Shown: in pieces, positions 1 through 47,773 of the stretch | Layout: each line of letters starts with the position of its first letter | Position numbering within the stretch: the first letter of the stretch is position 1 | From: Lachnospiraceae bacterium | GTDB taxonomy: Bacteria; Bacillota; Clostridia; Lachnospirales; Lachnospiraceae | Reading direction: 5' to 3' | DNA length: 50,603 nucleotides | NCBI GenBank assembly: GCA_045642625.1 | Contig: JAZUJC010000215.1 | Location: 1 to 50,603, forward strand | Notes under the pieces: generated by a model | Database searches by the model: none | The model's input: the letters and a program-made list of their open reading frames with translations, nothing else | What the model was told of the DNA's origin: nothing | Position numbers and translations under genes: made by a program

Positions 1-45
1 ACTTATAGGAACATAAAATCTATCTATAAAAAGGAGAGAATTGTT

Positions 46-504: not shown

Positions 505-530
505 CTATGGAATGTGTTTAAATCTAAATT

Positions 531-567
531 ACTTCTACCTGTTCTTTCAAGAGGATAGGTAGAAGTG
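531..567 (+). terminator. Stem-loop after first pilin gene (partial terminator or mRNA stabiliser)
   Basis: ACTTCTACCT...AGGTAGAAGT stem followed by GCTTTTTGTTTTT. Confidence 0.7.
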
Positions 568-647
568 CTTTTTGTTTTTAATTAAGAAACGGAATTGTTT
601 CGTTCATTAGTTAAAAGTAAAAAGACAAAAGAAAGAGAGGTAAAGTT

Positions 648-962: not shown

Positions 963-975
963 GGAGGAAAATTTT

Positions 976-1284: not shown

Positions 1285-1301
1285 AAAGGGAGGTAGTATA
1301 A

Positions 1302-1655
1302 ATGTCTTTAAATACATTGTCTCATTCAACAATGGAAGAGATCAGGGAAGATGAAGAAAAGTGGCTTAAATTTTTCACTAAGCGTTCTCTTATAGCATGT
1401 GTTGTTGGTGCCATACCCGGATATCTGATTTTCAGTATCGTGGGTTCCTTTGCTCCTATGTGGGTAGGCGGAATTATATGGGCTATCATTGAAATAGGAA
1501 TGTTTGCTTTAACAACGCTGAGATTGAGCGTTGAAGATAACCGCAATACTGGTGGTGGTCAGTTTGTGTATATGGTGTTTCTGAGAAAGGTTTTTCATAG
1601 GTTTAACAGGGAAGTTTATGTAAAGATGAATAGAGACGAGGAGGACGAGGAGTAA
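1302..1655 (+). CDS. PrgI/VirB3-like small membrane protein
   Basis: E-x-KW-LKFFTKR followed by two TMs and a C-terminal VYVK; position between pilins and virB4. Confidence 0.65.
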   Translation: MSLNTLSHSTMEEIREDEEKWLKFFTKRSLIACVVGAIPGYLIFSIVGSFAPMWVGGIIWAIIEIGMFALTTLRLSVEDNRNTGGGQFVYMVFLRKVFHRFNREVYVKMNRDEEDEE

Positions 1656-4900: not shown

Positions 4901-4917
4901 AGGGAGGATTTGTCCTT

Positions 4918-8330: not shown

Positions 8331-8367
8331 GTGCAACTTTTCCCTATACTACTTATAGAGGATAAAA
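8331..8367 (+). promoter_or_regulatory. Conserved promoter-like motif, copy upstream of Tad operon
   Basis: GTGCAACTTTTCCCTATACTACTTATAGAGGATAAAA is 36/37 identical to 47737-47773; both lie at operon starts. Confidence 0.75.
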
Positions 8368-11300: not shown

Positions 11301-11472
11301 AGAGGGACAGATTGATTTCCTTGCACCTATGACAACCAACAAGGGACTCAAACAGTACAACCTGTATCAGAGGGTTGGCAGAAGAGAGATACACTGTATG
11401 CCTACTTGTGAAATGCCAACACAGTGCGATGCGGACACAGTGGAATTTATGAAGAAATTAGTACTTAAATAA
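8383..11472 (+). CDS. TadZ/CpaE-like protein: atypical receiver domain, long charged helix, two degenerate MinD/ParA domains
   Basis: GGAGGTGA RBS plus GTG; receiver-like N-terminus (KILLAI..YDAIIT); E/K/R-rich helix; deviant P-loops GLYKGAGTTT and GAERGCGVTH. Confidence 0.6.
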   Translation: MAKILLAIQVDDANAFAEKLERVSQKKNREDTFVKATNMVQILNLLEEEKYDAIITQYQLGAVPFTAEEIFRIQRMNEKMSVIVVVPDEIKGGTFLAALLGENILNATFGSEAKPSYLLRLVDEKRTRQDARAYYGIVDNVSSKEETNNLPAYGNTAENTMKLKQYLLTGDDMPFKERLDYIVSKVQINELVMMFQTLEPDVQAQIAEYPEYEPYINMVSMKKEPKKEKKKGGLFGGLFGGKAKDETKDEEEIKEPEKEVKKEAPKEKPVEEPKQEIKEKPVEVKEEKSKPEKKDRIVTDRNDFMSDFFGLNSADTSFNKKEETKPEPVKVEKPIEKPVEKPVESGMSDREKQRADEKKRLEMERIAKEEKIREDAQRAIKEQAQKKLEEERKRAEEEKQRLLEEQNAKLEEERKAREEAERKAEEEKAEREKAELERKAKEEAERKALEEAHKKELEENQRLAEEKRKKVEAELKAIEEEKQRVIEQANKAAEEERRRAEAEKQKLLREKEKEAEQIKKDLEARERNLIKEMDDKESELIREQERITKEAEKRAAEQQKRFSAELEKERRAREEAERRAETPVTVIQKQMMARRVIGVFGLYKGAGTTTAAIAVAKTLSQYEPVTYIEVPGNNHGVFGALNLGKNIGPDFKSVPHMIADGNMDFSTVQNMYEDINFFVANDAYGNIRLDANQVAGMINGTSDNVVLDPGCSMEEARRSGLMNLFTQVLIVYDKEQEDNYLSRIKDELEISSNSTHEPYLLAFSEKGGETSPLASEVLYSSARKPKNLNGIQPLELKAYDEQKFLEYFGLGQTKKLKRKKQSPIIKFMGVKDIAVLGAERGCGVTHTALMLADSVRRNYKVAVLELNPTKHMENLARELGRYEEGSQMLKLYGIDVYFNIPYQEFAKKYRANYQVLVIDFGTYKNATDKGKNGSSNRDVFINCSKKYVVFDASPWRLAVLNDLVPRLDNDTDPEGQIDFLAPMTTNKGLKQYNLYQRVGRREIHCMPTCEMPTQCDADTVEFMKKLVLK

Positions 11473-11588
11473 TGATATTTTAGAGCAGTTTCTACTTATT
11501 ATAAATACTTATAAGTAACTGCCTAACATATATAAATTAAAAATGGGAGAGATTTCCCATAAAAATACAAATTGGAGGATTAATTAAG

Positions 11589-12554
11589 ATGAGTACAAGA
11601 AAAGGCAAGAGTGCATTGGCAACCATCCTTTGTGTAATCATTATCTTGGGTTGTGTAGGTTTCTGTGTATGGTTCTTCTTAACAACAAAGGAGAATCTTA
11701 AGAATGACTACGAGCAGCAGATTAGTGAATTGCAGATGAAGATTGCCGGAAAGACACGAATGGTTTATGTGGCAAAAGAGGGTATCCGTTCAGGTGTTAT
11801 GATTTCAAGAGATTTATTTGATGTCAAGGAAGTTTTAACCGATGCTGCGGACTACATTACTGATGATGATTTTGGAAAGACAATGCTTGTTGATGTATCT
11901 GCCGGAACGGAAATGAAGAAGTCTTTTGTTTCTGGCGAGGTTATTGATACAGAGCTTCGTGAAGTTGAGTACAGCTACATTGAGGTTACTTCAAATGTAA
12001 ATACTGGTGATTATGTTGATGTTCGTATTATGATGCCTGATGGCTCAGACTATATCGTTGCATCCAAGAAGCAGATTAAGGCACTTAATGAGACAAAGCT
12101 TGTGTGTGACCTTTGGATGAGTGAGGAAGAAATTCTTTTGATGGATTCTGCTGCCGTAGATGCATACCTTTATAGAAACATCGAAGAAAGAGTTATGGAT
12201 GCAAGAATCTATGTTACAAAGTACATTATGCCTACTGTTCAGGGTGCCTCAATTCCTAACTACGCACCTTCAGAGGCGGTTGCTGCTTTAATTGCTGAGA
12301 ACCCTAACATTGCACAGATTGCAAGTCAGTACCTTTCAAGTGAGTTAAGACAGCAGAGACACGCACAGCTTAATGATTACTTGCCTAAGAGTAATGAGGG
12401 CCTTACATGGTATGATTCAACAGGACGTTATCTTGGTCATGCTACACAGGCAGAGGTTATGGGTAATGACATCGTTAACCATACCGGCTCAATTGCTGGT
12501 TCAGAACTTCCTTCTGAGTACGGAGTTGGTCTTTGGGATGATTTAGAAAAGTAA
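11589..12554 (+). CDS. cpaB: CpaB/RcpC-like SAF-domain pilus assembly protein
   Basis: N-terminal TM, VYVAKEGIRSGVMIS (SAF), NTGDYVDVRI (RcpC-like); context upstream of TadA. Confidence 0.75.
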   Translation: MSTRKGKSALATILCVIIILGCVGFCVWFFLTTKENLKNDYEQQISELQMKIAGKTRMVYVAKEGIRSGVMISRDLFDVKEVLTDAADYITDDDFGKTMLVDVSAGTEMKKSFVSGEVIDTELREVEYSYIEVTSNVNTGDYVDVRIMMPDGSDYIVASKKQIKALNETKLVCDLWMSEEEILLMDSAAVDAYLYRNIEERVMDARIYVTKYIMPTVQGASIPNYAPSEAVAALIAENPNIAQIASQYLSSELRQQRHAQLNDYLPKSNEGLTWYDSTGRYLGHATQAEVMGNDIVNHTGSIAGSELPSEYGVGLWDDLEK

Positions 12555-12577
12555 TTTACAAAGGAGAGGTAAACAAT

Positions 12578-13234
12578 ATGTTGGATATAAATATTATGGG
12601 CGTACAGATGAATGATACTGTACTTTATCTCTCACGTATTCTTAACAAGCTTTCAAAGGGTTCTGTAATTATTCGTGACTATACACGAAACCACGAACTC
12701 TATTCATGTGTTCCCGCTGTTGCCGGGATTGATCCTGCCGAGGATATAATTGATTATGCAGGTATTGGTTATACTTTCTCAAATGCAACTTCTGAGAAAT
12801 ATGACACCTGTATTCGTCTTTATGATATCGACAGAATGCCCGATTACGAGGATGCGACAACTCTTATTATTGCTGATGAGAGCAAGCGAGTGTCTGATGC
12901 ACTTAATGCAATGGACTGGTCTGATTTTCTCGATGAAGGAACAAAGATAATGCTTCTTGTAAAGCATTATACCGGAGTGGTGCGTAAGCAGTACGATCCG
13001 CTTGTAAAGAATGCAAATATCAAGCATAAGTTTCAGATTCCGATGAATGCTCACGATGTTAAGTGTGGCATTCTTGCGGAGCATAATGAGAAGTATGTAT
13101 TTAATTCAATTTCCACACAGTTTCAGGAGGCTTTAATGGATATAACAAGAGTTATCAGAAGTGATCTTGAAATGACCATTAAGGAGTCCGAGAAACTGTT
13201 TAAAGAAGTATCGAAGGGGGCGTTTAAAAAATGA
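12578..13234 (+). CDS. Tad-locus protein, probable degenerate ParA/MinD fold
   Basis: INIMG..DTVLYLSRIL..SVIIRD resembles an eroded ParA N-terminus; ATGA overlap with next gene. Confidence 0.45.
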   Translation: MLDINIMGVQMNDTVLYLSRILNKLSKGSVIIRDYTRNHELYSCVPAVAGIDPAEDIIDYAGIGYTFSNATSEKYDTCIRLYDIDRMPDYEDATTLIIADESKRVSDALNAMDWSDFLDEGTKIMLLVKHYTGVVRKQYDPLVKNANIKHKFQIPMNAHDVKCGILAEHNEKYVFNSISTQFQEALMDITRVIRSDLEMTIKESEKLFKEVSKGAFKK

Positions 13235-14028
13235 AAATAGGTTTTTGGTCTCCTTATCATGGCACTGGAGCAACAGCTAATATGCTTGCCCTTGCTGTAG
13301 CAATGGCAGAGAAGATGGATAAGCGCATACTGGTTACTCAGACACACTATATGATGAATAACCTCGAAAAGCCTCTTCTTGGAACTATTGAGAATGATGA
13401 GCAGTTTTATCGTGATACAGGTCTTGATGCGATTATGAGGTATTTCAAGTCGGGACAGCTCACCGAGGAACAGATTGATAACTGCTCAATCAAGATTAAC
13501 AGTAATTTATACCTTCTTGCTGGAACAAAAATGTCACAGAAAGAGTCTTATGAGAATAAGATTGTTCAGGAGATGGTAACTCATGTAATTGATATTGTTC
13601 AAAAGTATTATGATATATGTTTCATTGATACAAATGCCGGAACCAATGAACAGACTATGGCGGTAATCAACGAGTGTGACCTTGTGGTTGTTACTGTTCG
13701 TCAGCATAAGGATATGCTTGATTCGGTTTTTGCGAATGATATGCTGAAGAATAAGAAAGTATTTTATCTCTTTGGTAGCTATGATGATAATTCAAAGTAC
13801 AATCTTGCTAACTTGCGTAAGGCATACAGCAAGAACATGAACAAGTTTAATTCAGGCGGTATTCCTCATTCGACAGAATATATGGATGCCATCTGTGATA
13901 ACCGAATCCTCAAATTCATCACATCTAATCTTGAAGCGGATGAAGATTCTGCCAACTTTGAGTTTTTCGAAATGCTTAGAGAGGCAGCAGCGGGAATCTT
14001 AACTCTTGCGGAAAAAAAGAATAAATAA
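13231..14028 (+). CDS. ParA/MinD/CpaE-like protein
   Basis: KIGFWSPYHGTGATAN deviant P-loop; NLYLLAG; YDICFIDTNAG. Confidence 0.75.
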   Translation: MKIGFWSPYHGTGATANMLALAVAMAEKMDKRILVTQTHYMMNNLEKPLLGTIENDEQFYRDTGLDAIMRYFKSGQLTEEQIDNCSIKINSNLYLLAGTKMSQKESYENKIVQEMVTHVIDIVQKYYDICFIDTNAGTNEQTMAVINECDLVVVTVRQHKDMLDSVFANDMLKNKKVFYLFGSYDDNSKYNLANLRKAYSKNMNKFNSGGIPHSTEYMDAICDNRILKFITSNLEADEDSANFEFFEMLREAAAGILTLAEKKNK

Positions 14029-14049
14029 GGAAGGAGAATAAATAAAATT

Positions 14050-16017
14050 ATGATACCTGTTATTATTTTGGCAGTTGTGCTTTTGATAGTGGTACTTATG
14101 CTTGTATTCTCTGACCGTGCTATCCGTAAGAGAAAGGATATGAAGAGCTGGCAGAAGGATCATTTCAAGTTTGATGCACTTTGTAGAACAGCAAAGGAAA
14201 GTATCAATGACGTCCTTAATATGGACTTCGATGAAATGTATAGTCTTAACCAGGAAGAGCGTATTAAGAGAGAAAGGCAGCAGAGCAGACTTAGACGAGC
14301 TACAAGAGAGGCTTGTTCGGGTGACTCTGGTGATAGAGATTTCCTTAAGGACTATATCAAGGACCTGTTACAGAAACAGCTTGGTATTGACAAGGTTACT
14401 ATCAATAATGTTATTCCTTTCTCAAATTCAGATGCAATGACTGCGGTTGAGAAATACGAATATATGTATACCATGTATAAGTCAAGATACCATTTCAGAG
14501 TTTTCTCATACATGGAAAAGGACTTTGGTTGGCTTAATCAGAAGGATCGCGGAAACGGCACATTCATTTATGAAATCAATGAGGACGATATCAATCGTGC
14601 TTATGATGAGTGCCAGTACACAGGCGATTTTGACGATCAGCTTGAAACACTGGTACAGAGAGTATTTGAAACACTTTACGGAAACGATGTTGCCGACCTT
14701 ATGATTATTGATGAATCATTCGATGGTGTATCCGGTGGTGTCGGTGGTGTTACCAGAGCTAATTATAACTATATTGACGAGTTGAGCAAGCTGCACGATA
14801 AGTACTCAATGCCTTCTCGTCCTTATGAGACCATTTATTGTGTTTATCATGGTCGTACAATCCGTCTTAAGTTCCTTTCATTCCGAAGTGAAGAGGTATT
14901 AAGAAGCGTTGTTAAAAAGGTATATTCATACGATGTTAAAACAGTTCTTTCAAAGCTCCATCCTGTACTTCATGGAACAATGAAGAACAATTCTCGTGTA
15001 GTTGTAGCGAGACCTCCTGTGTCAGATTCTTGGGTATTCTATATCCGTAAGTTTGAATCTGCTGACGCAAAGGATATTACAACACTTGTTACACATCAGG
15101 GACGAGGTATTGTTATTGAAATGCTGAGAGCCATTACCCAGGGCGAAGTAAACTTCGTTGTTTCAGGTGAAATGGGTTCAGGTAAGACTACAATGATTAA
15201 GGCATTGGTAGGTTTCATGAATCCTCTTTATACAATCCGTACCGCCGAGACTTCATTCGAGTTATCACTTAACAATATGTACCCTGAGAGAAACGTACAT
15301 GCAATGCAGGAATCAACTGGTGGACAGAATGAAGTATCAATTTATGACATTCTTACTGCCACCAAGAAGATGGACTCTGATATCGTAGTAATCGGTGAGG
15401 TTAATGCTCCTAAGATTGCAGGTGCGTATGTGCAGGTTGCCCAGTCTGGTTCAAAGGCTGCTATTACAACACTGCACCACAGAACAACTGAAGCACTTAT
15501 TGAGTACCTTACAAATGCCCTTGTTGGTGAACTTGGTGTAACTGAAAAGATTGCTGAAAAGGAAATCGTTGGAATTCTTAACTTTGATGTTCATACAAAG
15601 AAAGACCTTGAAGGTAACTTCTATATTGAACGAATCACTGAGGTTATTCCTGCTGAAAAGAGTGATTATCCTATTGATATGAATGAGGCCAGAAGAGAGT
15701 TCTATCGTAGACAGACCGACCGCCATTCATACCAGCTTAATAACATCATCGTATTTAACAGAGATAAGATGGGTTATGATGTTAAGAATAATATCTCTAG
15801 TTACACATACGAGCTTCTTGCAATGAAGCTTGGCTATGAACAGGCTAACCAGATTATTTATGAGCTTGAAGAGGCGAAGAAGGGTGCAAACTTTGACCAC
15901 CTTTATGAGCGAGGTGTTGTTGTGGTTAAGGATGTACTTGAAAGCAGTGACGATAGCTATGATGAGTATGGTGATGAGTACGGGGACGATGATGATGCAC
16001 CTCTGTTTAATAACTAA
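14050..16017 (+). CDS. tadA: TadA/CpaF pilus assembly ATPase
   Basis: Walker A GEMGSGKTT, Asp box ETSFEL, Walker B IVVIGEV, His box TTLH; IRKF motif. Confidence 0.9.
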   Translation: MIPVIILAVVLLIVVLMLVFSDRAIRKRKDMKSWQKDHFKFDALCRTAKESINDVLNMDFDEMYSLNQEERIKRERQQSRLRRATREACSGDSGDRDFLKDYIKDLLQKQLGIDKVTINNVIPFSNSDAMTAVEKYEYMYTMYKSRYHFRVFSYMEKDFGWLNQKDRGNGTFIYEINEDDINRAYDECQYTGDFDDQLETLVQRVFETLYGNDVADLMIIDESFDGVSGGVGGVTRANYNYIDELSKLHDKYSMPSRPYETIYCVYHGRTIRLKFLSFRSEEVLRSVVKKVYSYDVKTVLSKLHPVLHGTMKNNSRVVVARPPVSDSWVFYIRKFESADAKDITTLVTHQGRGIVIEMLRAITQGEVNFVVSGEMGSGKTTMIKALVGFMNPLYTIRTAETSFELSLNNMYPERNVHAMQESTGGQNEVSIYDILTATKKMDSDIVVIGEVNAPKIAGAYVQVAQSGSKAAITTLHHRTTEALIEYLTNALVGELGVTEKIAEKEIVGILNFDVHTKKDLEGNFYIERITEVIPAEKSDYPIDMNEARREFYRRQTDRHSYQLNNIIVFNRDKMGYDVKNNISSYTYELLAMKLGYEQANQIIYELEEAKKGANFDHLYERGVVVVKDVLESSDDSYDEYGDEYGDDDDAPLFNN

Positions 16018-16031
16018 GGAGGTGAGCACTT

Positions 16032-18071
16032 ATGTCTAATGATGTACTGCTTATTATAATGGGTGTTGGCGGTGTCGGTGCCGTAGTGCTTATTATAATG
16101 GCCATTGTGATAAACAATAGTAAGAAGAAGGAATTAAGTGCTCAGGGAGTTTTTGTGAGCAAGAAGTCAAGCAAGCGTGGCTTGTTTGCCGGTGTTTATT
16201 ATGTTCTTGAGGCAATTCCTTTCACAAGACGATTTGTAAGGGCAATGGGAAGAAGATACGAGATAATGTATCCCGGTGATCGTGCGAAGAGCACTGCCGA
16301 TACAATGAAACTTCTCGTAAAAATCTTCATTATGGGTGTTATATGCCTGATTGTTATTTTTGGTCTCAATCCCGGTGTTTACACTTTCCTTACTGCTTTA
16401 TTTATGATTTATGTGTTTGGTATGGAGTTTAGCTGTTCGGCTGCTACCAACATGGAATTAAAATTTTTAGATGCGTTTGACCAGTTTTTATCTCAGGTAA
16501 AGCATAATTTCTTCAAGACACACTCTACAAAGGCGGCTATTGACCTTGCAAGAGAGGACTGTAAAAGAATTATGCGTGGTCATGCGGAACAGATGTATAA
16601 CGTCATGGACGCAGCAGACGGAGACCTTGCGATGCGAGAATATATGTCACAGGGTTACAGCAAGTTTTTGAAGCTTTTCCTTTTGCTTGCCTTCACAGTT
16701 GAGGAAAATGGTGACTCTACTCTTGATGATGGTTCATCGGCATTCCTTAACTCAATTCAGCAGTTGCGTTCTGACATTCAGGCAGAAAAGAGATACATCC
16801 AGAAGAGAGGAGATAAGTTTAAGAGCTTAACTCTTACAGCTTCAATTCCTCTTGTGGCAGTTCCGTACATTGCCTGGTGGGGACAGGACACAATTCCTTC
16901 GCTTGTTAATTTTTACAGCGGACATACAGGCTTTATCTTAAAATGCGCTCTCATGTGCATTTCCATTGTGAGCTTTAATGTTTTAACTCGACTGCGTGAG
17001 GGTGATCGTCTTGATAAAAAGACTTATCCTTTTGTCGAGAGACTTGCAAGCCTTTTCCCTTTTAATAAGATACTTAACGGACTTATTAAGAGAAACTATG
17101 CAAAGAGCTTAAAGGTTGGTGATACCTTAAAGAGACTTTGCGAGAAATATACTGTACGAACATTCTATATGCTCAAGTGCTGCTACTTCGCGGTAGGAAT
17201 CGTAGTAATGGTAGTATTACTGTCATTTGGTCATATTGAAAGCCGTCATATCCTTTTGACTGATATATCAGACCTTTCAAATATCAGCACAAGTGCTGAT
17301 GGAAGACAGATTCAGGCTATGGAGAGGGTTGTTCCCCAGTATACACAGTGGATAATACAAGAAAACTTCCAGCTTGATCCTCAGTTTGAGATGCAGCTTG
17401 AAGCGTTAATCAGAAATGAGCAGGGAATCAGAACGGATGCTGTTGCTCATGTGGCAACTGTTGAAATCCTTACACGAGTAAAGAATTACCGAGGTGAAGT
17501 TTTTGGATGGCTTGATTGCGTGGTTACATTCTTTGGTGCGTTACTTGCGTACTGGTATCCAAGCCTTATGCTTTCATTCAGAAAAGCACTTACGGATAAT
17601 AAGATGGAAGACGAGGTAATGCAGTTCCAGAGCCTTTTGTATATCTTACGTGAGGTTCCCGGAATGAGCCCCATGCGACTTCTTGAGCAGATGGAATCAT
17701 TTGCCGAGATATTCAAGCCTGCGTTGCAGCACTGCCTGAATAACTTCAATGTAAATGATAAGAAAGCCCTTGAAGATATGTATATGGAGGAAAATTATCC
17801 TGCTTTCAGACGAATAGTTGACTGTTTCCTTATGGTTGATGATATGGGTATCATCAATGCCTTTAACGAAATCGCAAGTGAAATCACTTCATTTAAGGAG
17901 AACAGAGAACTTGAGAGAGAATTGCAGCTTAACAAAGAAGGTACTCTTGCAACGATTATTGGTGTAATACCCGGAGGTCTTATTCTTGGTGGATACCTTC
18001 TTGCTCCTTTCCTTATTCGTTCTGTTGCTATTTTCAATTCGTACAACGCAGATGTATCAACCCTCGTATAA
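16032..18071 (+). CDS. Fused TadB/TadC-like membrane platform protein
   Basis: Two T2SSF-like halves with TM clusters (FLDAFDQFLSQV; EDEVMQFQSLL); follows TadA. Confidence 0.7.
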   Translation: MSNDVLLIIMGVGGVGAVVLIIMAIVINNSKKKELSAQGVFVSKKSSKRGLFAGVYYVLEAIPFTRRFVRAMGRRYEIMYPGDRAKSTADTMKLLVKIFIMGVICLIVIFGLNPGVYTFLTALFMIYVFGMEFSCSAATNMELKFLDAFDQFLSQVKHNFFKTHSTKAAIDLAREDCKRIMRGHAEQMYNVMDAADGDLAMREYMSQGYSKFLKLFLLLAFTVEENGDSTLDDGSSAFLNSIQQLRSDIQAEKRYIQKRGDKFKSLTLTASIPLVAVPYIAWWGQDTIPSLVNFYSGHTGFILKCALMCISIVSFNVLTRLREGDRLDKKTYPFVERLASLFPFNKILNGLIKRNYAKSLKVGDTLKRLCEKYTVRTFYMLKCCYFAVGIVVMVVLLSFGHIESRHILLTDISDLSNISTSADGRQIQAMERVVPQYTQWIIQENFQLDPQFEMQLEALIRNEQGIRTDAVAHVATVEILTRVKNYRGEVFGWLDCVVTFFGALLAYWYPSLMLSFRKALTDNKMEDEVMQFQSLLYILREVPGMSPMRLLEQMESFAEIFKPALQHCLNNFNVNDKKALEDMYMEENYPAFRRIVDCFLMVDDMGIINAFNEIASEITSFKENRELERELQLNKEGTLATIIGVIPGGLILGGYLLAPFLIRSVAIFNSYNADVSTLV

Positions 18072-18086
18072 GGAGAGAGTATTATT

Positions 18087-18527
18087 ATGGCTGTTAGTCA
18101 CAGAAATGATGATCCTGAGAAGGATAAATTCCTGTCTCAGACAACCATCCTGCTTTTAGTTGGTATGTGTGTATTGGTGGTTGTCGGTGCGATAATCACC
18201 AATACGATTATGAATCGAAGCAATGAACAGTCCGTTGATTTGTACTGGCGTAATCCAATGCTCACATTTAATGCGAGTGAGATGAATGGCAGCACAGTAA
18301 TTACTGCAATACAGAGCTTGAAAGACTGTAGCGTGGAAATAGTTGTTGAGACAAAAGACGGATTCGTTGCGACATATAATTACTTGGTTTCGGAGTTTGT
18401 ACCTACATACACCTCAAAAGGCATTGATGAGCCGGGCTATATAAACCCTAATGCTTCTTTCAGTGTTGAGGGTGGTATCCCTGATAAAGACGGGAAGGTA
18501 CGAAAAGTAATATTACACCAAAAGTGA
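18087..18527 (+). CDS. Pilin-like protein (minor)
   Basis: N-terminal TM; shares G-S/A-x-V and YINP..F...G.V motifs with downstream pilins. Confidence 0.65.
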   Translation: MAVSHRNDDPEKDKFLSQTTILLLVGMCVLVVVGAIITNTIMNRSNEQSVDLYWRNPMLTFNASEMNGSTVITAIQSLKDCSVEIVVETKDGFVATYNYLVSEFVPTYTSKGIDEPGYINPNASFSVEGGIPDKDGKVRKVILHQK

Positions 18528-18545
18528 TAAGGAAAGGAGGCATAA

Positions 18546-18986
18546 ATGAGGAATCGAAGAAATGCGTTGGAACTTCCTGCTCAGGCACTTTTGCTTGCAG
18601 CAAGTGTTCTTATTACGGTAGTTATTATTTCCATTCTTTTCGTTAACTTCAGGTCAGCCAGCCAGTTGTCAAGTGCAGCCGGTGAGCAGATTGTTGATAT
18701 GACTGATGATATTAAGAATAATGCGGTCATGCAGTATGATGGATTGGAAGTTACGGGAGCTGATGTTGTTAATTTTTACAAGAAGCACTTAGGCGATTAC
18801 AAGGCTGGTCAAACAGGTCCTTTTACTGTTACGATTGGAGGCACTTCCTATACAAATGGTGCGAGCCTTTCATCACTTAGGGATTCATCAAGTGCAAGTT
18901 ATGTCAAGCCTACGGCAAGATATAAATGTACTGTCAACAAAAATGCGAATGGAGTAATTTCAAGCGTAACCTTTACCAAGAAGTAA
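18546..18986 (+). CDS. Pilin-like protein
   Basis: N-terminal TM; YDGLEVTGADV and YVKPTARY..NANGVISSVTF motifs paralogous to 19085 and 19556. Confidence 0.7.
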   Translation: MRNRRNALELPAQALLLAASVLITVVIISILFVNFRSASQLSSAAGEQIVDMTDDIKNNAVMQYDGLEVTGADVVNFYKKHLGDYKAGQTGPFTVTIGGTSYTNGASLSSLRDSSSASYVKPTARYKCTVNKNANGVISSVTFTKK

Positions 18987-19084
18987 AAAAGGTATCTGAC
19001 GCTAATTAAAAAGGTGGCAAGAGGCGTGTGTCTGCCTTTGAAGACACAGAAACTTATATTTTATAAAGGAGAAATTTAAGAATT

Positions 19085-19528
19085 ATGAACAAGCGTAACT
19101 CTATCGAAATTGGTGTTAAAGGTCTTATCCTTGCCGTAACTGTTATTATTGCAGTTATTCTTTCAGCACTTGCACTCTACATGGCTAACACATCAAAGAG
19201 TACCATCAACTCAGGTACAACACAGTATACTCAGTTAACAAGTGAGTATTCAGAAATTAATGCCACAATGTATGATGGTCTTGATGTAAGCGGTGCAAAG
19301 GTTGAGGAACTTATTAAGGATTGCTGCAAGGATGGTGTTATCACTGTTGTTGTTAAGACAAAGCTTAATGCTGGTGGTGCCAACTATGCAGGTAATGCAA
19401 AGACAGCGTACACACTTGGAAGTTCACCTGCTGACAACAATCACATCAATCCTACAGGTACATTTAGGGGAGAAGTTACAAAAAACAACAATGGTATGGT
19501 AACAACTATCACATTTACACAGCACTAA
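19085..19528 (+). CDS. Major Tad-type pilin, copy A
   Basis: AAGGAG RBS; hydrophobic N-helix, YDGLDVSGA, HINPTGTFRG; N-terminal ~72 aa nearly identical to copy B. Confidence 0.75.
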   Translation: MNKRNSIEIGVKGLILAVTVIIAVILSALALYMANTSKSTINSGTTQYTQLTSEYSEINATMYDGLDVSGAKVEELIKDCCKDGVITVVVKTKLNAGGANYAGNAKTAYTLGSSPADNNHINPTGTFRGEVTKNNNGMVTTITFTQH

Positions 19529-19555
19529 TATTTTATTTAAAGGAGATTAAAAATC

Positions 19556-19990
19556 ATGAACAAACGTAACTCAATTGAAATTGGTGTTAAAGGTCTTATC
19601 CTTGCCGTAACTGTTATTATTGCAGTTATTCTTTCAGCACTTGCACTCTACATGGCTAATACATCAAAGAGCACAATTAACTCAGGTACAACACAGTATA
19701 CTCAGCTTACAAGTGAATACTCAGAGATTGATGCCACAATGTACGATGGTCTTGATGTAAGCGGTGCAAAGATTGTTGAACTTATCAAGAAGCTTGCTCA
19801 GACTGGTTCAACTTATACAATCACTGTTGTAACACTTGAGTCAAATACTTCTACATACAGCTCAACAGCTCAGTATTCCGATCCCGGCCCTACTCAGGCA
19901 GCTCACATCAACGAGACAGGTACTTTCAGAGGTGAGGTTACTAAGAACGCTAACGGAATGGTAACAAGTATCAAGTTTACACAGCACTAA
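19556..19990 (+). CDS. Major Tad-type pilin, copy B
   Basis: Tandem paralog of copy A (83-bp exact identity 19106-19188 vs 19577-19659) with a divergent central head region. Confidence 0.75.
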   Translation: MNKRNSIEIGVKGLILAVTVIIAVILSALALYMANTSKSTINSGTTQYTQLTSEYSEIDATMYDGLDVSGAKIVELIKKLAQTGSTYTITVVTLESNTSTYSSTAQYSDPGPTQAAHINETGTFRGEVTKNANGMVTSIKFTQH

Positions 19991-20021
19991 TTTTACCGAT
20001 TACTCATTCGGTTTCCTCTTT

Positions 20022-20045
20022 AGGGGTGGAGTAAAATCCACCCCT
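20022..20045 (+). terminator. GC-rich stem-loop after pilin genes
   Basis: AGGGGTGGA-GTAAAA-TCCACCCCT; weak U-tract. Confidence 0.6.
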
Positions 20046-20056
20046 GTATAAAGGTA

Positions 20057-20159
20057 AAATCGACTAATTATATACGCATGTATATTGTGTTTCATTTGTT
20101 ACGGTAGAAACACGCTCCTCCCTCTATTTTATATACGTGCGTATATAAGTGGTTGATTT
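20057..20159 (+). ncRNA. Candidate structured RNA or paired operator (long inverted repeat with inner hairpin and anti-SD tract)
   Basis: 29-bp stem with 3 G:U pairs and 1 mismatch; inner GTGTTTC/GAAACAC hairpin; unpaired CTCCTCCCT. Confidence 0.4.
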
Positions 20160-20180
20160 AACGATATTTTAGCACAATAG

Positions 20181-20227
20181 GTATTATGATAATACAGTAT
20201 ATACGATAATATTGTAATACAATATTA
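20181..20227. promoter_or_regulatory. Two perfect palindromes upstream of pseudopilin genes (operator candidates)
   Basis: GTATTAT-G-ATAATAC (20181-20195) and TAATATTGTA-A-TACAATATTA (20207-20227). Confidence 0.5.
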
Positions 20228-20239
20228 CAAAACAGGAGA

Positions 20240-20743
20240 ATGAAAATGTATAGAAGAAATGGTGGCCAGATAGGAATATTCGTTACGGGACTTATCGCAA
20301 TAGTCCTTGTAGTGATCCTGCCTTTGCAATACATAGCCAAAACACAAGCCGAGTCGGTTAATTCCAATACTCAGGCAATTCTTGATGATATGGTTGCAAG
20401 AGTGCAGAGCACTCACAAATTTACAGAAAAGGATTACTTGAATCTCATGGAGACCATCAATATTTCCGGTGCGGTATATGACCTTGAAATATCAACGGGT
20501 ACAAGATACTACGGAATTGATGATGCGGATGATACAAGAATAGACACACCGATAATGACTTATACCAATGAGATAATAGATGAAATATCCGCTAACGGAT
20601 ATTATGAGTTTGGACCGGGGGACACAATAACATTCAGACTTGTAAGAAGAACATCGTCTGCTGCCTCACAAATAGCCAACTCATTGCTTGATACAAGTAT
20701 CGAGCCTACGGAGTTTATATCAGGTGGGGTAGTAGGAAGATAG
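20240..20743 (+). CDS. TadE/G-like pseudopilin
   Basis: Single N-terminal TM; paralogous to 22108..22647 (YTNEIIDEI..GYYEFGPGDTI vs YTAQILGAV..GAYLMNKGDTF). Confidence 0.6.
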   Translation: MKMYRRNGGQIGIFVTGLIAIVLVVILPLQYIAKTQAESVNSNTQAILDDMVARVQSTHKFTEKDYLNLMETINISGAVYDLEISTGTRYYGIDDADDTRIDTPIMTYTNEIIDEISANGYYEFGPGDTITFRLVRRTSSAASQIANSLLDTSIEPTEFISGGVVGR

Positions 20744-20759
20744 TAAAGAGGTAATAGTT

Positions 20760-21143
20760 ATGGATAGCGTAAAGGAATTTATGTTTACTGTTGTAGGAGC
20801 CTTGCTTTTTGTAGTTGCGGTCACAATGTTTATGGGACTGTCGAACAGGGTTCATGAGTTGTCTGATGAAGTAGAATCAACTGACAGCATAGATACAAGC
20901 CTTGCTTCAGTATCGAGCATTGAGTATACTGAGCCGGTTATTACATATTCCGATGTTGTGGCGGAACTGTTTGTGGACTCGTTGCAGTATGATGTGGAAA
21001 TAGATGGCGTTTTATATGAAAAGTCAGAGTACAACCTTGCAAGATATAATGTAAATGGAATTTCGGAACATGCCACATACAGACGCTCTTGTGTGTATGA
21101 TGCGGATGGAGTACTGACTAAGGTTATATATTGGAGTAACTAA
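20760..21143 (+). CDS. Pilin-like protein
   Basis: N-terminal TM; C-terminal YDADGVLTKVIY echoes the pilin C-terminal hairpin. Confidence 0.55.
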   Translation: MDSVKEFMFTVVGALLFVVAVTMFMGLSNRVHELSDEVESTDSIDTSLASVSSIEYTEPVITYSDVVAELFVDSLQYDVEIDGVLYEKSEYNLARYNVNGISEHATYRRSCVYDADGVLTKVIYWSN

Positions 21144-22102
21144 TGGATGTATTGGATGTAGTAATTCTTTTATTCGTCTCTATGGCGTGGTTTGCGGTGA
21201 TATTGTTCCTCACTGTAATTCTTCACGAGCTGGGACACTTTATCGGTGGTAAGTTATCAGGATATAAGTTTGCCGGGTTTGCCATTCTGGGATATTTATA
21301 CAACGGAAAAAGAATGAGTAAGTATGACAGAAGAATGCTTAATGTCGGTCAGTGTTATATGTATACTTGCGATTATGGTAAAAATCCTGTACTGCTTATT
21401 CTTGGCGGATGCATTATGAATATGTGTCTTGGTGTATTCTTTGCTTTGATTACTCTGTTTGTTGTGGATTTTGATAATTTCACATTAAGACAGATTTATT
21501 TACTTTTATTTTTGATGATTCCATCATTGATAAATATAATTATGGGAATCGGAAACCTGTTCTTTGGTTCATCTACTTCTGATGGCAAGACTTTCTTTGA
21601 GTGTCGCACAGAGGCTCATCAAGCTGAATATAATCACATAATGGGGATAACAAAATACCTGATTGACGGAGTTTCCTTCGGGCTTATGCCGGAAAGCCTT
21701 TTTAATTATGGGCAAGACTGGAAAAAGAACTCATTAAGTGCCGAAATGCGAATGTATTGTTATTATAGGGAACTGGAGCTTGCGGATACCCTTAAGGAAT
21801 ACATAAGCTCAGCCGTTGAGTATGGATTTAACGGAGAGTCATGGAAGAAGGGAAGATTCTTCATAGAAGAAAATGAACTTGAGCATGTTATATATGAGGT
21901 TCTGGTTGGTAGAAGGGTAGTGAAATACCCTGTATCAGAACTTGATCCGAGAACATACCTGCCTGGTCTGTTCCTTGCCGAAATGGGAAAGATAAAGGAT
22001 AGGAAGGAACCGGATACTACAAAACTTCCATTTATGGGAATTTCAATGTCCTTTGAAAAATTCCTGCGTAATGGAATATCATTCATAAAGGGGGAAGATT
22101 AA
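21143..22102 (+). CDS. M50-family (site-2-protease-like) membrane metallopeptidase
   Basis: HELGH in a TM, GGCIMN and N..SDG motifs; TAATG coupling to upstream gene. Confidence 0.8.
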   Translation: MDVLDVVILLFVSMAWFAVILFLTVILHELGHFIGGKLSGYKFAGFAILGYLYNGKRMSKYDRRMLNVGQCYMYTCDYGKNPVLLILGGCIMNMCLGVFFALITLFVVDFDNFTLRQIYLLLFLMIPSLINIIMGIGNLFFGSSTSDGKTFFECRTEAHQAEYNHIMGITKYLIDGVSFGLMPESLFNYGQDWKKNSLSAEMRMYCYYRELELADTLKEYISSAVEYGFNGESWKKGRFFIEENELEHVIYEVLVGRRVVKYPVSELDPRTYLPGLFLAEMGKIKDRKEPDTTKLPFMGISMSFEKFLRNGISFIKGED

Positions 22103-22107
22103 AAACT

Positions 22108-22647
22108 ATGATTGATTCACCTATGTCAAAACTTGTCAGCGTGGTTATTGTTGTTGCCGTTCTTTTCCTGTTTCCCATTATATGGGCAGCCCAAAAGGGA
22201 GATTATCTTTCACAGAAAAAAGCTGAAAAGGTTGTATATGATTTTGTTACGAATGTATGTGACAGGGGATATATAGATGATACCTTGTACGAGGCTTTTA
22301 TGGCTAACTTATCGTCTACTGGTAATACATACAAAATTGAAATGATGCATCGTCAGAATATATATGAGCCTGAGTACAGTGGTGCTACTTTTACAGGAAA
22401 TGTAATGGAGTACGTCTCTGAAGCATATACGGCTCAGATCCTGGGTGCTGTATATGACGGAAATGGTGCTTATCTCATGAATAAGGGTGATACCTTTGAG
22501 GTGTCAATAATACTTGCAACAGAGGGCCTTGCTCAGTCATTAACTAATAATACGGTCGGAGTTGGAACAACCGGATATTATAAGGCTTCTATGGCTGTGA
22601 CTGGTATATCTCATCAGATTAGAGAAAAATACATTGATAATAAGTAA
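22108..22647 (+). CDS. TadE/G-like pseudopilin
   Basis: N-terminal TM ending LFLFP; FVTNVCDRGYI..YEAF..LSSTGNTY motif. Confidence 0.6.
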   Translation: MIDSPMSKLVSVVIVVAVLFLFPIIWAAQKGDYLSQKKAEKVVYDFVTNVCDRGYIDDTLYEAFMANLSSTGNTYKIEMMHRQNIYEPEYSGATFTGNVMEYVSEAYTAQILGAVYDGNGAYLMNKGDTFEVSIILATEGLAQSLTNNTVGVGTTGYYKASMAVTGISHQIREKYIDNK

Positions 22648-43321: not shown

Positions 43322-43412
43322 ATAATTATAAATTCACATCATTTTTACAAAAATTCTTATTTCAGCTTTGATTTTGATAATCTTAAATTATATTATTGCA
43401 TGGGAGGTGTTT

Positions 43413-44015
43413 TTGTTGATTTATGGCTATGCAAGGGTTTCCTCGAAGGAGCAGAGGCTTGACCGACAAATCGAAGCTCTTAAGAAGATTAAGCCGGATG
43501 TAATATATCATGACAAGGCAAGTGGCAAGGACTTCGAAAGGAAGAATTTTTTGCGATTAGTGAAACGATTAAAGTTTGGTGATGTTGTCTATGTTGAATC
43601 GCTGGATCGCTTCGGACGAAATTACCGGGAAATTATCGAATGGTGGAAGTTTATTACCGGGAAGGGTGCGGATATTGTGGTTCTTGATATGCCGCTACTG
43701 GATACAAGAAAGAGTGATGAGAATAATCTTTTGGGCAGCGTAATTACAGATATTGTTTTGTCACTCCTAAGCTATGTTGCGGAAACAGAAAGGAGGATGA
43801 TAAAAGAAAGGCAGAAAGAGGGTATTGAGTGTGCCATGAAACGAGGCGTGAAATTTGGTGCCCCCAAAAGGGTTACAGTAGGTGAACAAGAAACAAAAGT
43901 GTTAGAGTTAGTGAATGAAGGGGTGGTGACGAGGAGAGAGGCAGCAGAGAAACTTAAGCTTACGTACAGCCAAGTAGTTTATAGAGAGAAACTTGTTCGA
44001 CAATTAAAACAATAA
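43413..44015 (+). CDS. Small serine recombinase (resolvase/invertase family)
   Basis: YGYARVSSKEQRLDRQ, DKASG, SLDRFGR, ERQKEGI, C-terminal HTH; GGAGG RBS before TTG 43413/43416. Confidence 0.93.
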   Translation: MLIYGYARVSSKEQRLDRQIEALKKIKPDVIYHDKASGKDFERKNFLRLVKRLKFGDVVYVESLDRFGRNYREIIEWWKFITGKGADIVVLDMPLLDTRKSDENNLLGSVITDIVLSLLSYVAETERRMIKERQKEGIECAMKRGVKFGAPKRVTVGEQETKVLELVNEGVVTRREAAEKLKLTYSQVVYREKLVRQLKQ

Positions 44016-44023
44016 TTTTAAAG

Positions 44024-44200
44024 TGTACTTTATTATAGCACAATTTATTATTTTTTCAATATTTTAATATTTTTCATTATTTTTTACTATTATTTCTTAC
44101 TTTCCCACAATATACGCACACAAAACGCAAAAACATGTACTTTTAACACTATATATAGACTTCCAAATCATCATCCCAACCATCCCTATAATAAAGTACA
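44024..44200. promoter_or_regulatory. Candidate invertible promoter segment bounded by perfect 15-bp inverted repeats
   Basis: TGTACTTTATTATAG (44024-44038) and CTATAATAAAGTACA (44186-44200); internal minus-strand TTGAAA-16-TATAAT promoter. Confidence 0.7.
44032..44059 (-). promoter_or_regulatory. Consensus sigmaA promoter inside the invertible segment, currently facing the recombinase gene
   Basis: Minus strand TTGAAA-aaataataaattgtgc-TATAAT with TGTG extended -10 and an A-rich UP-like region. Confidence 0.75.
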
Positions 44201-44217
44201 GAATATTGTAATGGGGG

Positions 44218-44598
44218 GTGGGCTTTGTGAATATGTCAAGCGTTATCAGATGTCAGTTGCCGTCTGAAACTGTGAAAAACGAAATAGACAGAATAATTAG
44301 ATATATGTCGGCCTATCCTGATGAACATCTTTATGTTGTAGATAATCGTTATGGTACAGTCCCGTACTGGTCATTAACAGGTGTTAAGACCATTCGGGAG
44401 TATTATGATTGTGTGATAGAAAAAGATGGGGGTAATGCACAGTTTTCTACCTGCCGAGAGTCAGGTGCTCCCGTATGGATGTGTGTCGATGAAGTTATTA
44501 CTTATATGGAAGAAGCGGGGCTTGTCAAGGTAGATGGGGGAATGGCGTATGCTACACCTTGGCTTTATGAATATGGTTCAAGAGTGATTGGGGTGTGA
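44218..44598 (+). CDS. Hypothetical protein, first gene of sigma-factor operon
   Basis: Open 126-aa frame; G-rich RBS; start may be ATG 44233. Confidence 0.6.
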   Translation: MGFVNMSSVIRCQLPSETVKNEIDRIIRYMSAYPDEHLYVVDNRYGTVPYWSLTGVKTIREYYDCVIEKDGGNAQFSTCRESGAPVWMCVDEVITYMEEAGLVKVDGGMAYATPWLYEYGSRVIGV

Positions 44599-44602
44599 GT
44601 AT

Positions 44603-45406
44603 ATGGCGCGTTTTACGAATGCGATAGATGGGGACAGAGTTCAGGAGCTTGTCCGCATTATTATCGAGGGCAGGAGAGCCAAGAGAAAGGTCGATGTATT
44701 GACATGGGGACTACTTGCTGCGGAAAAGGTAAGTGATGTTTTAAAGGATCTTGCCGAGATTAACCTAAAAGTGAGCCGGATGGAACAGGCTGAACTAGAG
44801 TTTTGTACCCATGCATATAGAATTGTAGATAATGTAATTGTCAGCTTTTATAAGTTTTTCGTTGATAATTCAGAGTTTTATAATGTCAAAGAGGATTTGA
44901 GACAGTCTCTCATAGTGGAGCTGTTTAAGCTCCTGAAGACCTATAACGAGGATATAAATTCCTCTTTTGCAAAATATACCTTCTCTGCTTTACGATATAT
45001 TCTGGTGAGTATGTTGTTTGGTGATTATGACGGAGATTTCAGCTCTGCGAATGAGAAGAAATTTAAGACTGTTGGAAAGTCTAATGTTGTGCCATATGAA
45101 GATGTTCGGGAAAACATAGAAACATCTCGTGGATATGTACTTGATATTGAGAGAAATTTGCTTAAGGAAGAAGTGCGTAAGAAGGTACGGGAGGCTATCG
45201 AAAGTTTGCCGAATGGAAAAGAAAGGGAGCTTCTTAAATTATATTTCTTTGAGGAGAAATCACGCAGGGAAATATGCGAGATTTTAACTTTAGGAGTAGA
45301 AAAGGAATTTAATAGGCTATACCAAAGCGCATTGAAACGTGTCGAGAAGGCTCTTGATAATGCGGAGTTTAAGGATGCTTATACTGAGTACAGGGGAATT
45401 ATGTAA
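44603..45406 (+). CDS. Alternative sigma-70-family RNA polymerase sigma factor
   Basis: Region 2-like EDLRQSLIVELFKLLKTYN..SSFAKY; region 4 AIESLP..ERELLKLYFFEEKSRREICEIL..SALKRV. Confidence 0.8.
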   Translation: MARFTNAIDGDRVQELVRIIIEGRRAKRKVDVLTWGLLAAEKVSDVLKDLAEINLKVSRMEQAELEFCTHAYRIVDNVIVSFYKFFVDNSEFYNVKEDLRQSLIVELFKLLKTYNEDINSSFAKYTFSALRYILVSMLFGDYDGDFSSANEKKFKTVGKSNVVPYEDVRENIETSRGYVLDIERNLLKEEVRKKVREAIESLPNGKERELLKLYFFEEKSRREICEILTLGVEKEFNRLYQSALKRVEKALDNAEFKDAYTEYRGIM

Positions 45407-45688
45407 ATGGTAAAAGAGCTTGAAATAGGTAAATCTTATCTGATATTTATTGTAAAAATTGCAGAAGGGAACCGGAATCGGTACAAAAAGAATGTTGGAA
45501 CAAATAAAGGAAAATATCTTGTAGTAAGCAAGAATAACTACGAGTATACTGTTAAATTTTGCGGGGTTCCTGCTGAGAATGTGGAAGTCCTAACTTCGAT
45601 AAGTGTTGCCGATCTTATATGTGGTTATGTGTGTGCGTTTCCAACCGATGAGGAAGGTGTTGGCTCTGCTGAAATACCACATCAATAG
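45407..45688 (+). CDS. Hypothetical protein
   Basis: Abuts sigma gene stop; followed by terminator. Confidence 0.55.
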   Translation: MVKELEIGKSYLIFIVKIAEGNRNRYKKNVGTNKGKYLVVSKNNYEYTVKFCGVPAENVEVLTSISVADLICGYVCAFPTDEEGVGSAEIPHQ

Positions 45689-45698
45689 TTTAATGATT

Positions 45699-45725
45699 AT
45701 TGCCGACGTTTTTGTCGGCAATTTT
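45699..45725 (+). terminator. Intrinsic terminator closing the sigma operon
   Basis: ATTGCCGAC-GTTTTT-GTCGGCAAT then TTT. Confidence 0.75.
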
Positions 45726-47736: not shown

Positions 47737-47773
47737 GTGCAACTTTTCCTTATACTACTTATAGAGGATAAAA
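47737..47773 (+). promoter_or_regulatory. Conserved promoter-like motif, copy upstream of S1/relaxation operon
   Basis: 36/37 identical to 8331-8367. Confidence 0.75.

What the first reader, a model, noticed from the sequence alone, without database searches (positions are those of the whole stretch)
43413..45688. Invertase-driven promoter switch controlling a plasmid-encoded sigma factor (candidate master ON/OFF switch)
Seen: 8 bp after the serine recombinase stop is TGTACTTTATTATAG, and its perfect reverse complement ends at 44200, 17 bp before the operon containing the sigma factor. Each site reads GT core plus an identical 12-bp inner arm containing TATAAT; the left site is pseudo-palindromic around GT (TAAAGT-GT-ACTTTA). 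Only the left end has a -35 and TG extension (TTGAAA-16-TATAAT), and it faces away from the operon; the right TATAAT has neither. Inversion would place the full promoter in front of 44218-45688. Established: Hin/Gin-type serine invertases act on ~26-bp sites with a 2-bp core and flip promoters. Inference: this assembly captures the OFF state.
Basis: partly seen in the sequence, partly recalled or inferred. Interest (0 to 1): 0.92.

Follow-up and report, generated by a model that had tools for sequence, protein, structure and literature searches.

The report
Invertible promoter gates plasmid sigma factor

Summary
Perfect 15-bp inverted repeats (44024-44038, 44186-44200) are the middle of two 26-bp 12-2-12 sites with a GT core, 8 bp behind an intact small serine recombinase. 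Public run X3 holds both junctions of the flipped form, probably from one DNA fragment; run X1 and the assembly hold the window's form. The sigma-A-type promoter now faces away from the operon (likely OFF); flipped, it sits 26 bp before it. The 267-aa protein passes the sigma-70 cut-off. The cassette itself is not unique: 14 of 32 related recombinase loci also carry an inverted repeat behind the gene, none with a sigma gene in the 1.5 kb held. New here: a private motif, found 5 times in this genome, lies only on the two plasmid contigs; four copies head the pilus, relaxase, coupling-protein and a conserved backbone operon. It is the likely target of the sigma factor, untested. Against: a complete related plasmid has its own motif and no detectable sigma. 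Verdict: known parts (invertible promoter; element-encoded sigma as in Tn916) in a combination my searches did not find. New variant of a known kind; interest 0.68.

The parts
43413..44015 (+). Small serine recombinase (200 aa; Resolvase domain plus C-terminal HTH), likely the invertase
   Evidence: Pfam PF00239 E 8.6e-31; YARVSS, DKASG and SLDRFGR motifs align with Sin and gamma-delta resolvase
43368..43396 (+). Candidate sigma-A promoter of the recombinase gene
   Evidence: 9 of 12 consensus match; not above chance alone
44013..44038 (+). Left recombination site: outer arm 44013-44024, GT core 44025-44026, inner arm 44027-44038 (the inner arm carries the -10 box on the minus strand)
   Evidence: joint at 44023
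44039..44185 (.). Invertible segment, 147 bp between the repeats; top strand 33 C versus 4 G
   Evidence: joints 44023>44200 and 44039>44186 on opposite strands in run X3; skew
44032..44059 (-). Sigma-A-type promoter TTGAAA-16-TATAAT with TG extension; faces the recombinase gene in this assembly (likely OFF). After inversion it would lie at 44165-44192 on +
44186..44211 (-). Right recombination site: inner arm 44186-44197, core 44198-44199, outer arm 44200-44211
   Evidence: joint
44218..44598 (+). orfA, 121-126 aa, no family; first gene of the switched operon
   Evidence: no Pfam, NCBIfam or PHROG hit; one homologue at 63%
44603..45406 (+). Divergent sigma-70-family factor, 267 aa
   Evidence: TIGR02937 53.9 bits against cut-off 42.9; fold matches are sigma chains but the model is weak
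45407..45688 (+). orfC, 93 aa, no family above cut-off; last gene of the operon
45699..45722 (+). Intrinsic-terminator-like hairpin closing the operon
   Evidence: only terminator-like site in 43000-46200
8339..8357 (+). Motif A, candidate promoter for the plasmid sigma, before the Tad-type pilus operon (8383 onward)
47745..47763 (+). Motif A before the 47807-50405 operon, which is conserved in related plasmids
1..8 (+). Probable cut-off end of a further motif A copy before the pilin/VirB4 operon (46-8268); only 8 letters are held
   Evidence: inference
46..8268 (+). Type IV secretion (mating) genes: VirB2-like pilins, PrgI, VirB4-like ATPase, large membrane protein
8383..22647 (+). Tad-type pilus operon (secretion ATPase, pilin-like genes)
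   Evidence: same block in G061:C50
23358..24889 (+). Iteron-like repeats and Rep3 initiator: plasmid replicon

Best explanation
The 177-bp segment 44024-44200 is an invertible promoter, seen in both orientations, that is likely flipped by the adjacent serine recombinase and likely switches transcription of a three-gene operon whose sigma factor is predicted to activate the plasmid's conjugation genes. Steps: (1) shown: the segment inverts between the two repeats. (2) Inferred, about 0.85: the recombinase binds the two 26-bp sites and exchanges strands at the GT core; the two inner arms are identical, so both sites are rebuilt unchanged and the flip is reversible. (3) Inferred, about 0.8: the -10 box lies in that shared arm, so the flip only brings or removes the -35 box, the TG extension and the A-rich upstream DNA. 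In the window's form the promoter fires into the end of the recombinase gene and the operon is silent; the C-rich top strand may also stop read-through via Rho. (4) Inferred, about 0.8: the 267-aa protein works as a sigma factor. (5) Inferred, about 0.6 given the rest: it reads motif A and so turns on pilus, mating-channel, relaxase and coupling-protein operons together in the ON subpopulation.
For: Both inversion joints in run X3 fall on the repeats with 15 ambiguous letters. Run X1 reads straight through the left site (43493-44125) and shares three changes with X3 (43986, 43989, 44004), so close kin show both forms. GT is the best dyad at both sites. Catalytic motifs are intact. 15 of 33 recombinase loci (this one included) have an inverted repeat of 11 bp or more just behind the stop, against 0 of 33 upstream controls; many share the GT core, and promoter-like matches face either way. 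Sigma-70 cut-off passed; 31 columns are invariant over 5 homologues, and the region-2-like stretch is well kept in the four close ones. The 12-letter core of motif A occurs 5 times in G000, all on C215 and C86; the 19-letter pattern occurs 4 times in G000 and once in 400 other family genomes, against 6 for the reversed control. C86 carries the relaxase-like and coupling-protein genes, and one contig of G061 joins the C86 and C215 gene blocks. A related plasmid with its own sigma gene (G061:C17) has 15 copies of a motif with the same two-box spacing. Precedent: Tn916 Sig7-8 drives conjugation genes (10.64898/2026.10.01.756105, passages); SigN reads only pBS32 promoters (PMC6751061, passages). 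The host has Rho.
Against: The flipped form rests on two 151-letter records at depth about 2 that overlap by one base, probably one fragment; no single run shows both forms. No transcription data. The complete related plasmid pNP144 has 12 copies of its own motif before transfer genes and no sigma-70 hit; G061:C154/C50 has another motif that reads like a sigma-A promoter with an operator, and no sigma was found on those two contigs. The C17 sigma is not detectably orthologous (hhalign 1%), has no invertase beside it, and its motif also reads as a sigma-A promoter. Only 2 of the 5 motif A copies keep the upstream box, and that two-box pattern was drawn after seeing the sites. The sigma's region-4 helix is poorly conserved and the model is weak (pLDDT 58). 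The recombinase lies on a long branch away from the clade that holds the other 10 loci with repeats of 14 bp or more. Linkage of recombinase and sigma in relatives could not be seen.
Confidence: 0.55

Rival explanations
1. The switch is real and controls the sigma operon, but the sigma does not run conjugation. Motif A is a host sigma-A promoter (its TATACT read as the -10 box) with a site for another plasmid regulator, and the sigma serves other plasmid or host genes.
For: pNP144 and G061:C154/C50 have private motifs before transfer operons with no detectable sigma. C86 encodes a double-HTH regulator. The upstream box of motif A varies.
Against: Motif A has neither a -35 box at 17 bp nor a TG extension for sigma-A (read by eye). 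In the register shared with C17 its -10 box lacks the last T that sigma-A needs (established knowledge). The two-box pattern is seen in the two sigma-carrying plasmids (15 and 2 copies) and hardly in the others (1, 0, 0).
Confidence: 0.27
2. The switch is real, but the 267-aa protein is not a working sigma (a decayed sigma acting as DNA-binding regulator or competitor for polymerase), or the true cargo is orfA or orfC.
For: Pfam finds only a sub-threshold region 4; no subfamily cut-off is met; the tryptophan pair of region 2.3 is replaced and the region-4 helix varies; orfA travels with the sigma in at least one relative, judged by equal contig length 7490.
Against: TIGR02937 covers residues 81-250 above cut-off; reading frame and length are kept over homologues at 41-64% identity; fold matches are sigma chains.
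Confidence: 0.1
3. No working switch: the repeats are binding sites of a Sin-like plasmid resolvase or of a repressor, and the flipped reads are a library artefact (template switch at the repeats).
For: Nearest solved relative is Sin. The flipped form may be one fragment.
Against: Both joints are exact and reciprocal, and X3 shows no record of the window's form across either site among the pieces listed (4 pieces were not shown). Resolution needs direct, not inverted, sites (established knowledge). No further half-sites lie near. Relatives carry the same cassette with promoter-like matches facing either way.
Confidence: 0.05

Closest known systems
Hin/hix of Salmonella and Gin, Cin, Pin (site geometry recalled; PMC11868660 passages seen)
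   Same: Small serine recombinase, two inverted 26-bp sites with a 2-bp core, promoter flipped to switch an operon.
   Different: Enzyme is closer to Sin than to the PDB 'DNA-invertase' chains (E 1.7e-27 against 7e-15); gene lies outside the segment; segment is only 177 bp; no enhancer identified; cargo is a sigma factor.
Mpi and other invertible promoters of Bacteroidales, including those on ICEs and on plasmid pMMCAT (PMC12632263, PMC8748976, 10.1101/2024.04.29.590671; passages)
   Same: Short promoter segment directly behind a recombinase gene; found on conjugative elements.
   Different: Mpi model score 46 against cut-off 272. In the passages seen the cargo is glycan, surface or resistance genes, not a sigma factor or transfer regulator; the pMMCAT enzyme is a tyrosine recombinase.
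Flagellar switch of Clostridioides difficile (PMC7446863, passages)
   Same: A DNA inversion upstream of an operon that encodes a sigma factor (SigD) and so gates a whole regulon; Rho acts in the OFF form.
   Different: There the switch lies in the 5' leader and holds no promoter, is chromosomal, and is flipped by RecV (a tyrosine recombinase, recalled) in trans.
Tn916 Sig7-8 (10.64898/2026.10.01.756105, passages) and pBS32 SigN (PMC6751061, passages)
   Same: Element-encoded sigma factor with element-private promoters; Sig7-8 drives conjugation genes in a subpopulation.
   Different: Those are controlled by read-through, LexA and auto-activation. Here the control is a DNA inversion, the sigma is one chain, and no copy of motif A lies before its own gene.
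Butyrivibrio hungatei plasmid pNP144 (NZ_CP017832.1)
   Same: Best complete-plasmid match to the VirB4 (35.6%); shares pilus-region, ParA, DUF3854 and coupling-protein homologues; has a private motif before transfer operons.
   Different: No sigma-70 hit, no match to the recombinase or sigma operon, different motif.

Membership tests
Hin/Gin-type serine invertase system | Small serine recombinase with catalytic Ser motif and C-terminal HTH | tested here: met
Hin/Gin-type serine invertase system | Two inverted 26-bp 12-2-12 sites with an asymmetric core | tested here: met
   GT core, outer arms 8 and 7 of 12
Hin/Gin-type serine invertase system | Both orientations exist | tested here: met
   thin (probably one fragment for the flipped form)
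Hin/Gin-type serine invertase system | Sequence closest to Hin/Gin invertases | tested here: not met
   Sin and gamma-delta/Tn3 resolvases score higher than the 'DNA-invertase' chains 4m6f and 3uj3
Hin/Gin-type serine invertase system | Fis-bound enhancer needed | not testable with these tools
   needs in vitro work; feature recalled
Mpi family (NF009949) | Score above the family cut-off | tested here: not met
   46.1 against 272 bits
Serine-recombinase invertible-promoter cassettes of related Clostridia (no published name found) | Inverted GT-core sites starting just behind the recombinase stop, 100-200 bp apart, promoter between | tested here: met
   15 of 33 loci with repeats of 11 bp or more, 0 of 33 controls
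Serine-recombinase invertible-promoter cassettes of related Clostridia (no published name found) | Recombinase inside the clade rich in such repeats | tested here: inconclusive
   long branch with P0006, outside the 19-row clade; tree unrooted, all 37 rows kept
Sin/beta-type plasmid resolvase with res site | Several binding subsites around one crossover site | tested here: inconclusive
   no further half-site within 2 mismatches near the gene; degenerate subsites not excluded
Sigma-70 family | Score above TIGR02937 cut-off, regions 2 and 4 covered | tested here: met
   53.9 against 42.9 bits, residues 81-250
Sigma-70 family | Sigma fold | tested here: inconclusive
   top matches are mostly sigma chains, TM 0.2-0.37, model pLDDT 58
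Sigma-70 family | Binds core polymerase and directs initiation | not testable with these tools
   needs experiment
Named sigma subfamilies (FliA/WhiG, SigB/F/G, ECF groups) | Score above a subfamily cut-off | tested here: not met
   best FliA 44.5 against 201
Element-encoded sigma regulon (Sig7-8, SigN type) | Element-private promoter motif before element operons | tested here: met
Element-encoded sigma regulon (Sig7-8, SigN type) | The sigma is what reads that motif | not testable with these tools
   comparison of 4 plasmids gives mixed support
Element-encoded sigma regulon (Sig7-8, SigN type) | Auto-activating promoter before the sigma gene | tested here: not met
   no motif A hit near 44016-44603 in the weight-matrix scan

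The most novel reading that the evidence does not exclude
Conjugation of this plasmid is phase-variable by DNA inversion: a flip of one 177-bp promoter turns on a private sigma factor and with it every transfer operon. Because the state is written in the plasmid DNA, only ON plasmids transfer and recipients receive the ON form, giving a self-propagating burst of mating that ends when the recombinase flips it back; the OFF form damps its own reversal by antisense transcription into the recombinase gene.
Probability: 0.35. Interest if true: 0.85.

Novelty: new variant of a known kind. Interest (0 to 1): 0.68.

Why it matters
Conjugative elements usually restrict mating to a few cells through protein or RNA circuits that reset on transfer; in Tn916 the new host is silent. 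A switch written in the plasmid's own DNA would travel with it, so the transfer state would be inherited by both daughters and recipients. It would also let the fraction of donor-competent cells be read straight from metagenomic reads as an orientation ratio. The work also points to a common, apparently unnamed family of serine-recombinase promoter cassettes in gut-type Clostridia and shows that each member of a little-studied large-plasmid family marks its transfer operons with its own motif.

Tried and rejected
No RNA holder listed; this says nothing on expression. X2 and X4 do not bridge either site. Close relatives with DNA context were not found: sigma query in metagenome contigs 0 of 156 candidates, plasmids no match, 60 related genomes only weak general sigma hits; motif A 0 in metagenome contigs and 1 chance hit in a T4-like phage contig; the single family hit (G414) is not in plasmid context. 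Homologues P0002, P0003, P0124, P0127, P0006 and P0274 come from collections whose DNA I could not open, so conservation of the switch beside the sigma is untested. GC skew as a sign of orientation was rejected: -0.78 is the lowest of 5016 windows, but +0.78 would also exceed the highest (0.64). The right-site columns were wrong through a coordinate error and were redone. G407:C11 (13 kb) was too short to test for a sigma. Atlas look-ups for orfA and orfC returned nothing usable. No complex prediction was run. Papers: Jiang 2019 (PMC6543533) and a serine-invertase review were not held, and the supplement of PMC11892184 could not be read; either may list this cassette family or an inverton before a sigma gene.

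Full report
Setting. The window is the whole contig C215 of a 72%-complete, 324-contig genome. It encodes VirB2-like pilins, PrgI, a VirB4-like ATPase, a Tad-type secretion ATPase, a cell-wall hydrolase, a nuclease and a Rep3 initiator behind iteron-like repeats: a conjugative plasmid. Contig C86 of the same genome carries ParA, a DUF3854 protein, a coupling protein and a relaxase-like protein (the relaxase hit is below the Pfam cut-off). In genome G061 one contig (C50) holds homologues of both the C215 pilus block and the C86 block, so C86 is likely part of the same plasmid. The nearest named relatives are a Lachnospiraceae contig and Butyrivibrio hungatei pNP144; the host family is inferred from that.

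Observation. The repeats, distances and promoter are as described. A 15-bp perfect repeat was not reached in any of 500 shuffles, and the 15-mer has no other copy within 1 mismatch in the genome. Testing 20 positions for a dyad, GT at 44025-44026 (mirrored at 44198-44199) is best at both sites: outer arms match the inner arm at 8 and 7 of 12. The chance of that sum at one position is about 0.002, about 0.03 allowing for the 14 positions inside the repeat. Each site is thus 12-2-12, with the perfect repeat made of one outer base, the core and the inner arm.

Does it flip? Four of five listed runs were laid. Run X3 has two records with joints 44023>44200 and 44039>44186 on opposite strands, 15 letters fitting either side: exactly the inverted form. 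Run X1 has a 693-letter record running straight through the left site, the window's form, and shares three changes with X3. Limits: the X3 records are 151 letters at depth about 2 and meet at one base, so they are probably the two mates of one fragment; no run shows both forms; 4 pieces were not displayed. I judge real inversion at about 0.93, since an artefact would have to give both exact joints in the only molecule seen there.

The enzyme and its kin. The recombinase keeps the catalytic motifs and is closest to Sin among solved structures; it fails the Mpi cut-off. Of 36 loci of related recombinases (35 relatives at 44-58% identity plus this one), 33 had 500 bp or more downstream; 3 were dropped. 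15 of 33, this one included, have a perfect inverted repeat of at least 11 bp starting within 160 bp of the stop, against 0 of 33 in the upstream control; 11 have 14 bp or more, and two of the 11-bp cases look like chance. Many sites have the same GT core between AGT- and ACT-like flanks, and loose promoter matches point toward the cargo in 3 relatives and away in 7. A sigma profile hit only this locus among the 36, within the 1.5-kb flanks held. In a tree of 37 proteins the window's enzyme is on a long branch with P0006, outside the clade that holds the other 10 loci with long repeats. So it works like that family and is a divergent member at best.

What the flip does. Computed inversion puts the -35 box at 44165 and the -10 box at 44187-44192, 26 bp before 44218; the start would fall on the crossover core, so bound recombinase and polymerase would compete (inference). 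In the window's form the promoter fires into the last codons of the recombinase, which could damp flipping (inference). The top strand of the segment has 33 C and 4 G, the lowest skew of 5016 windows, and the host has Rho, so read-through may be cut in OFF (inference; Rho acts so in the C. difficile switch, PMC7446863, passages). A terminator-like hairpin closes the operon at 45699-45722.

The sigma. It passes TIGR02937 and no subfamily. It is rare: 3 proteins at E up to 0.001 in the word search and 2 at E up to 1e-10 among 1.84 billion representatives, plus a distant P0127. Region 2 is well kept and the region-4 helix is not. The model is weak and matches sigma chains. orfA's one homologue lies on a contig of the same length as one sigma homologue, 7490, which suggests linkage.

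A candidate regulon. Self-comparison showed a repeat before two operons. Its 12-letter core occurs 5 times in the genome, twice on C215 (before the pilus operon and the 47807 operon) and three times on C86 (before the relaxase-like and coupling-protein genes, and once facing off the contig end); the window also begins with the motif's last 8 letters, before the mating-channel operon. In 400 other family genomes the 19-letter pattern occurs once, the reversed control 6 times, so it is not a host promoter class. Related plasmids each have a private motif before the same kinds of operon: pNP144 12 copies, G061:C154 6 and C50 2, G061:C17. C17 encodes an RpoD-like sigma behind a fixed sigma-A-type promoter with no invertase near. 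A two-box pattern with a 15-bp spacer occurs 15 times in C17, 2 in the window, 0 in C86, 1 in pNP144, 0 in C154 and C50, and 5 in the other 1.93 Mb of G000; I drew that pattern after seeing the sites. Against: pNP144 is complete and has no sigma-70 hit (59 of its 150 proteins were also scanned in Pfam without a sigma domain); the two sigmas are not detectably orthologous; C17's motif also reads as a sigma-A promoter. The link from sigma to motif A is therefore likely but open.

Comparison with print. Seven full-text searches listed no paper whose title or abstract start describes an invertible promoter controlling a plasmid sigma factor or conjugation, and none held all of 'invertible, Lachnospiraceae, serine recombinase, inverted repeats, promoter'. 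I saw passages of PMC11892184 (also sections 7 and 8; its Clostridia group is tied to a tyrosine recombinase), PMC11602134, PMC11868660, PMC13114119, PMC12632263, PMC6751061, PMC8748976, PMC7446863, PMC8941779, 10.1101/2024.04.29.590671 and 10.64898/2026.10.01.756105; no whole text. Jiang 2019 was not available and the supplement of PMC11892184 could not be read; either may bear on novelty. Hix geometry and sigma-A rules are recalled. Earlier AI notes of this scan describe the same cassette family with other cargo and plasmid sigmas with private promoters; none held all words of the combination. They are leads only, but they show both parts recur.

Verdict. A real invertible promoter, likely OFF here, likely flipped by its neighbour, in front of a divergent sigma factor that probably drives conjugation (0.55 for the whole chain). 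New variant of a known kind; interest 0.68.

Noticed in passing
window 32938-32983 and 45731-45777; weaker at 50411-50438: A second shared upstream motif (85% over 47 bp) before three other operons, with a TTGCGTG element about 21-22 bp ahead of a -10-like box; possibly a regulator site.
   Followed up: partly
window 20054-20085 and 20131-20162: 32-bp imperfect inverted repeat in the 249-bp gap inside the pilus operon; it shares a 10-mer with the invertible segment (44110-44119). Could be an oriT, a regulator site or a second inverton.
   Followed up: no
window 42944-43187 versus 19234-19318 and 19709-19945: The 3' part of gene 42282-43232 is an 85-89% copy of the tandem pilin-like genes at 19085-19990: a chimeric or duplicated pilin tail directly upstream of the recombinase.
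   Followed up: no
window 23358-23937: About ten copies of a 21-22-bp iteron-like repeat before the Rep3 gene.
   Followed up: partly
window 29761-30912: Opposite-strand 383-aa ORF that looks like an IS200/IS605 TnpB (by eye, not scanned).
   Followed up: no
window 34829-42259: 2476-aa secreted-looking protein with DUF5704 and repeated domains; homologue in G061:C154.
   Followed up: partly
window 32614-32814: Small 67-aa ORF with PHROG hits, one to a transcriptional regulator family; a candidate plasmid regulator.
   Followed up: partly
L041-L043 (pNP144), 12 sites such as 42339, 139904, 10481: pNP144 has a private 16-bp motif before its transfer, relaxase and coupling-protein operons, with no detectable sigma; one site precedes a 538-aa MerR-family gene, a candidate reader.
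   Followed up: partly
L046 18038-18919 (G061:C17:75038-75919): RpoD-like sigma on a related 111-kb plasmid contig with 15 copies of a two-box motif; followed by direct repeats before a parAB pair.
   Followed up: partly
L064 and L081 (G105), L026 and L027 (G061): Single genomes carry more than one cassette of the recombinase-plus-repeat family with near-identical sites, so cross-flipping in trans is possible; several relatives have one site only.
   Followed up: no
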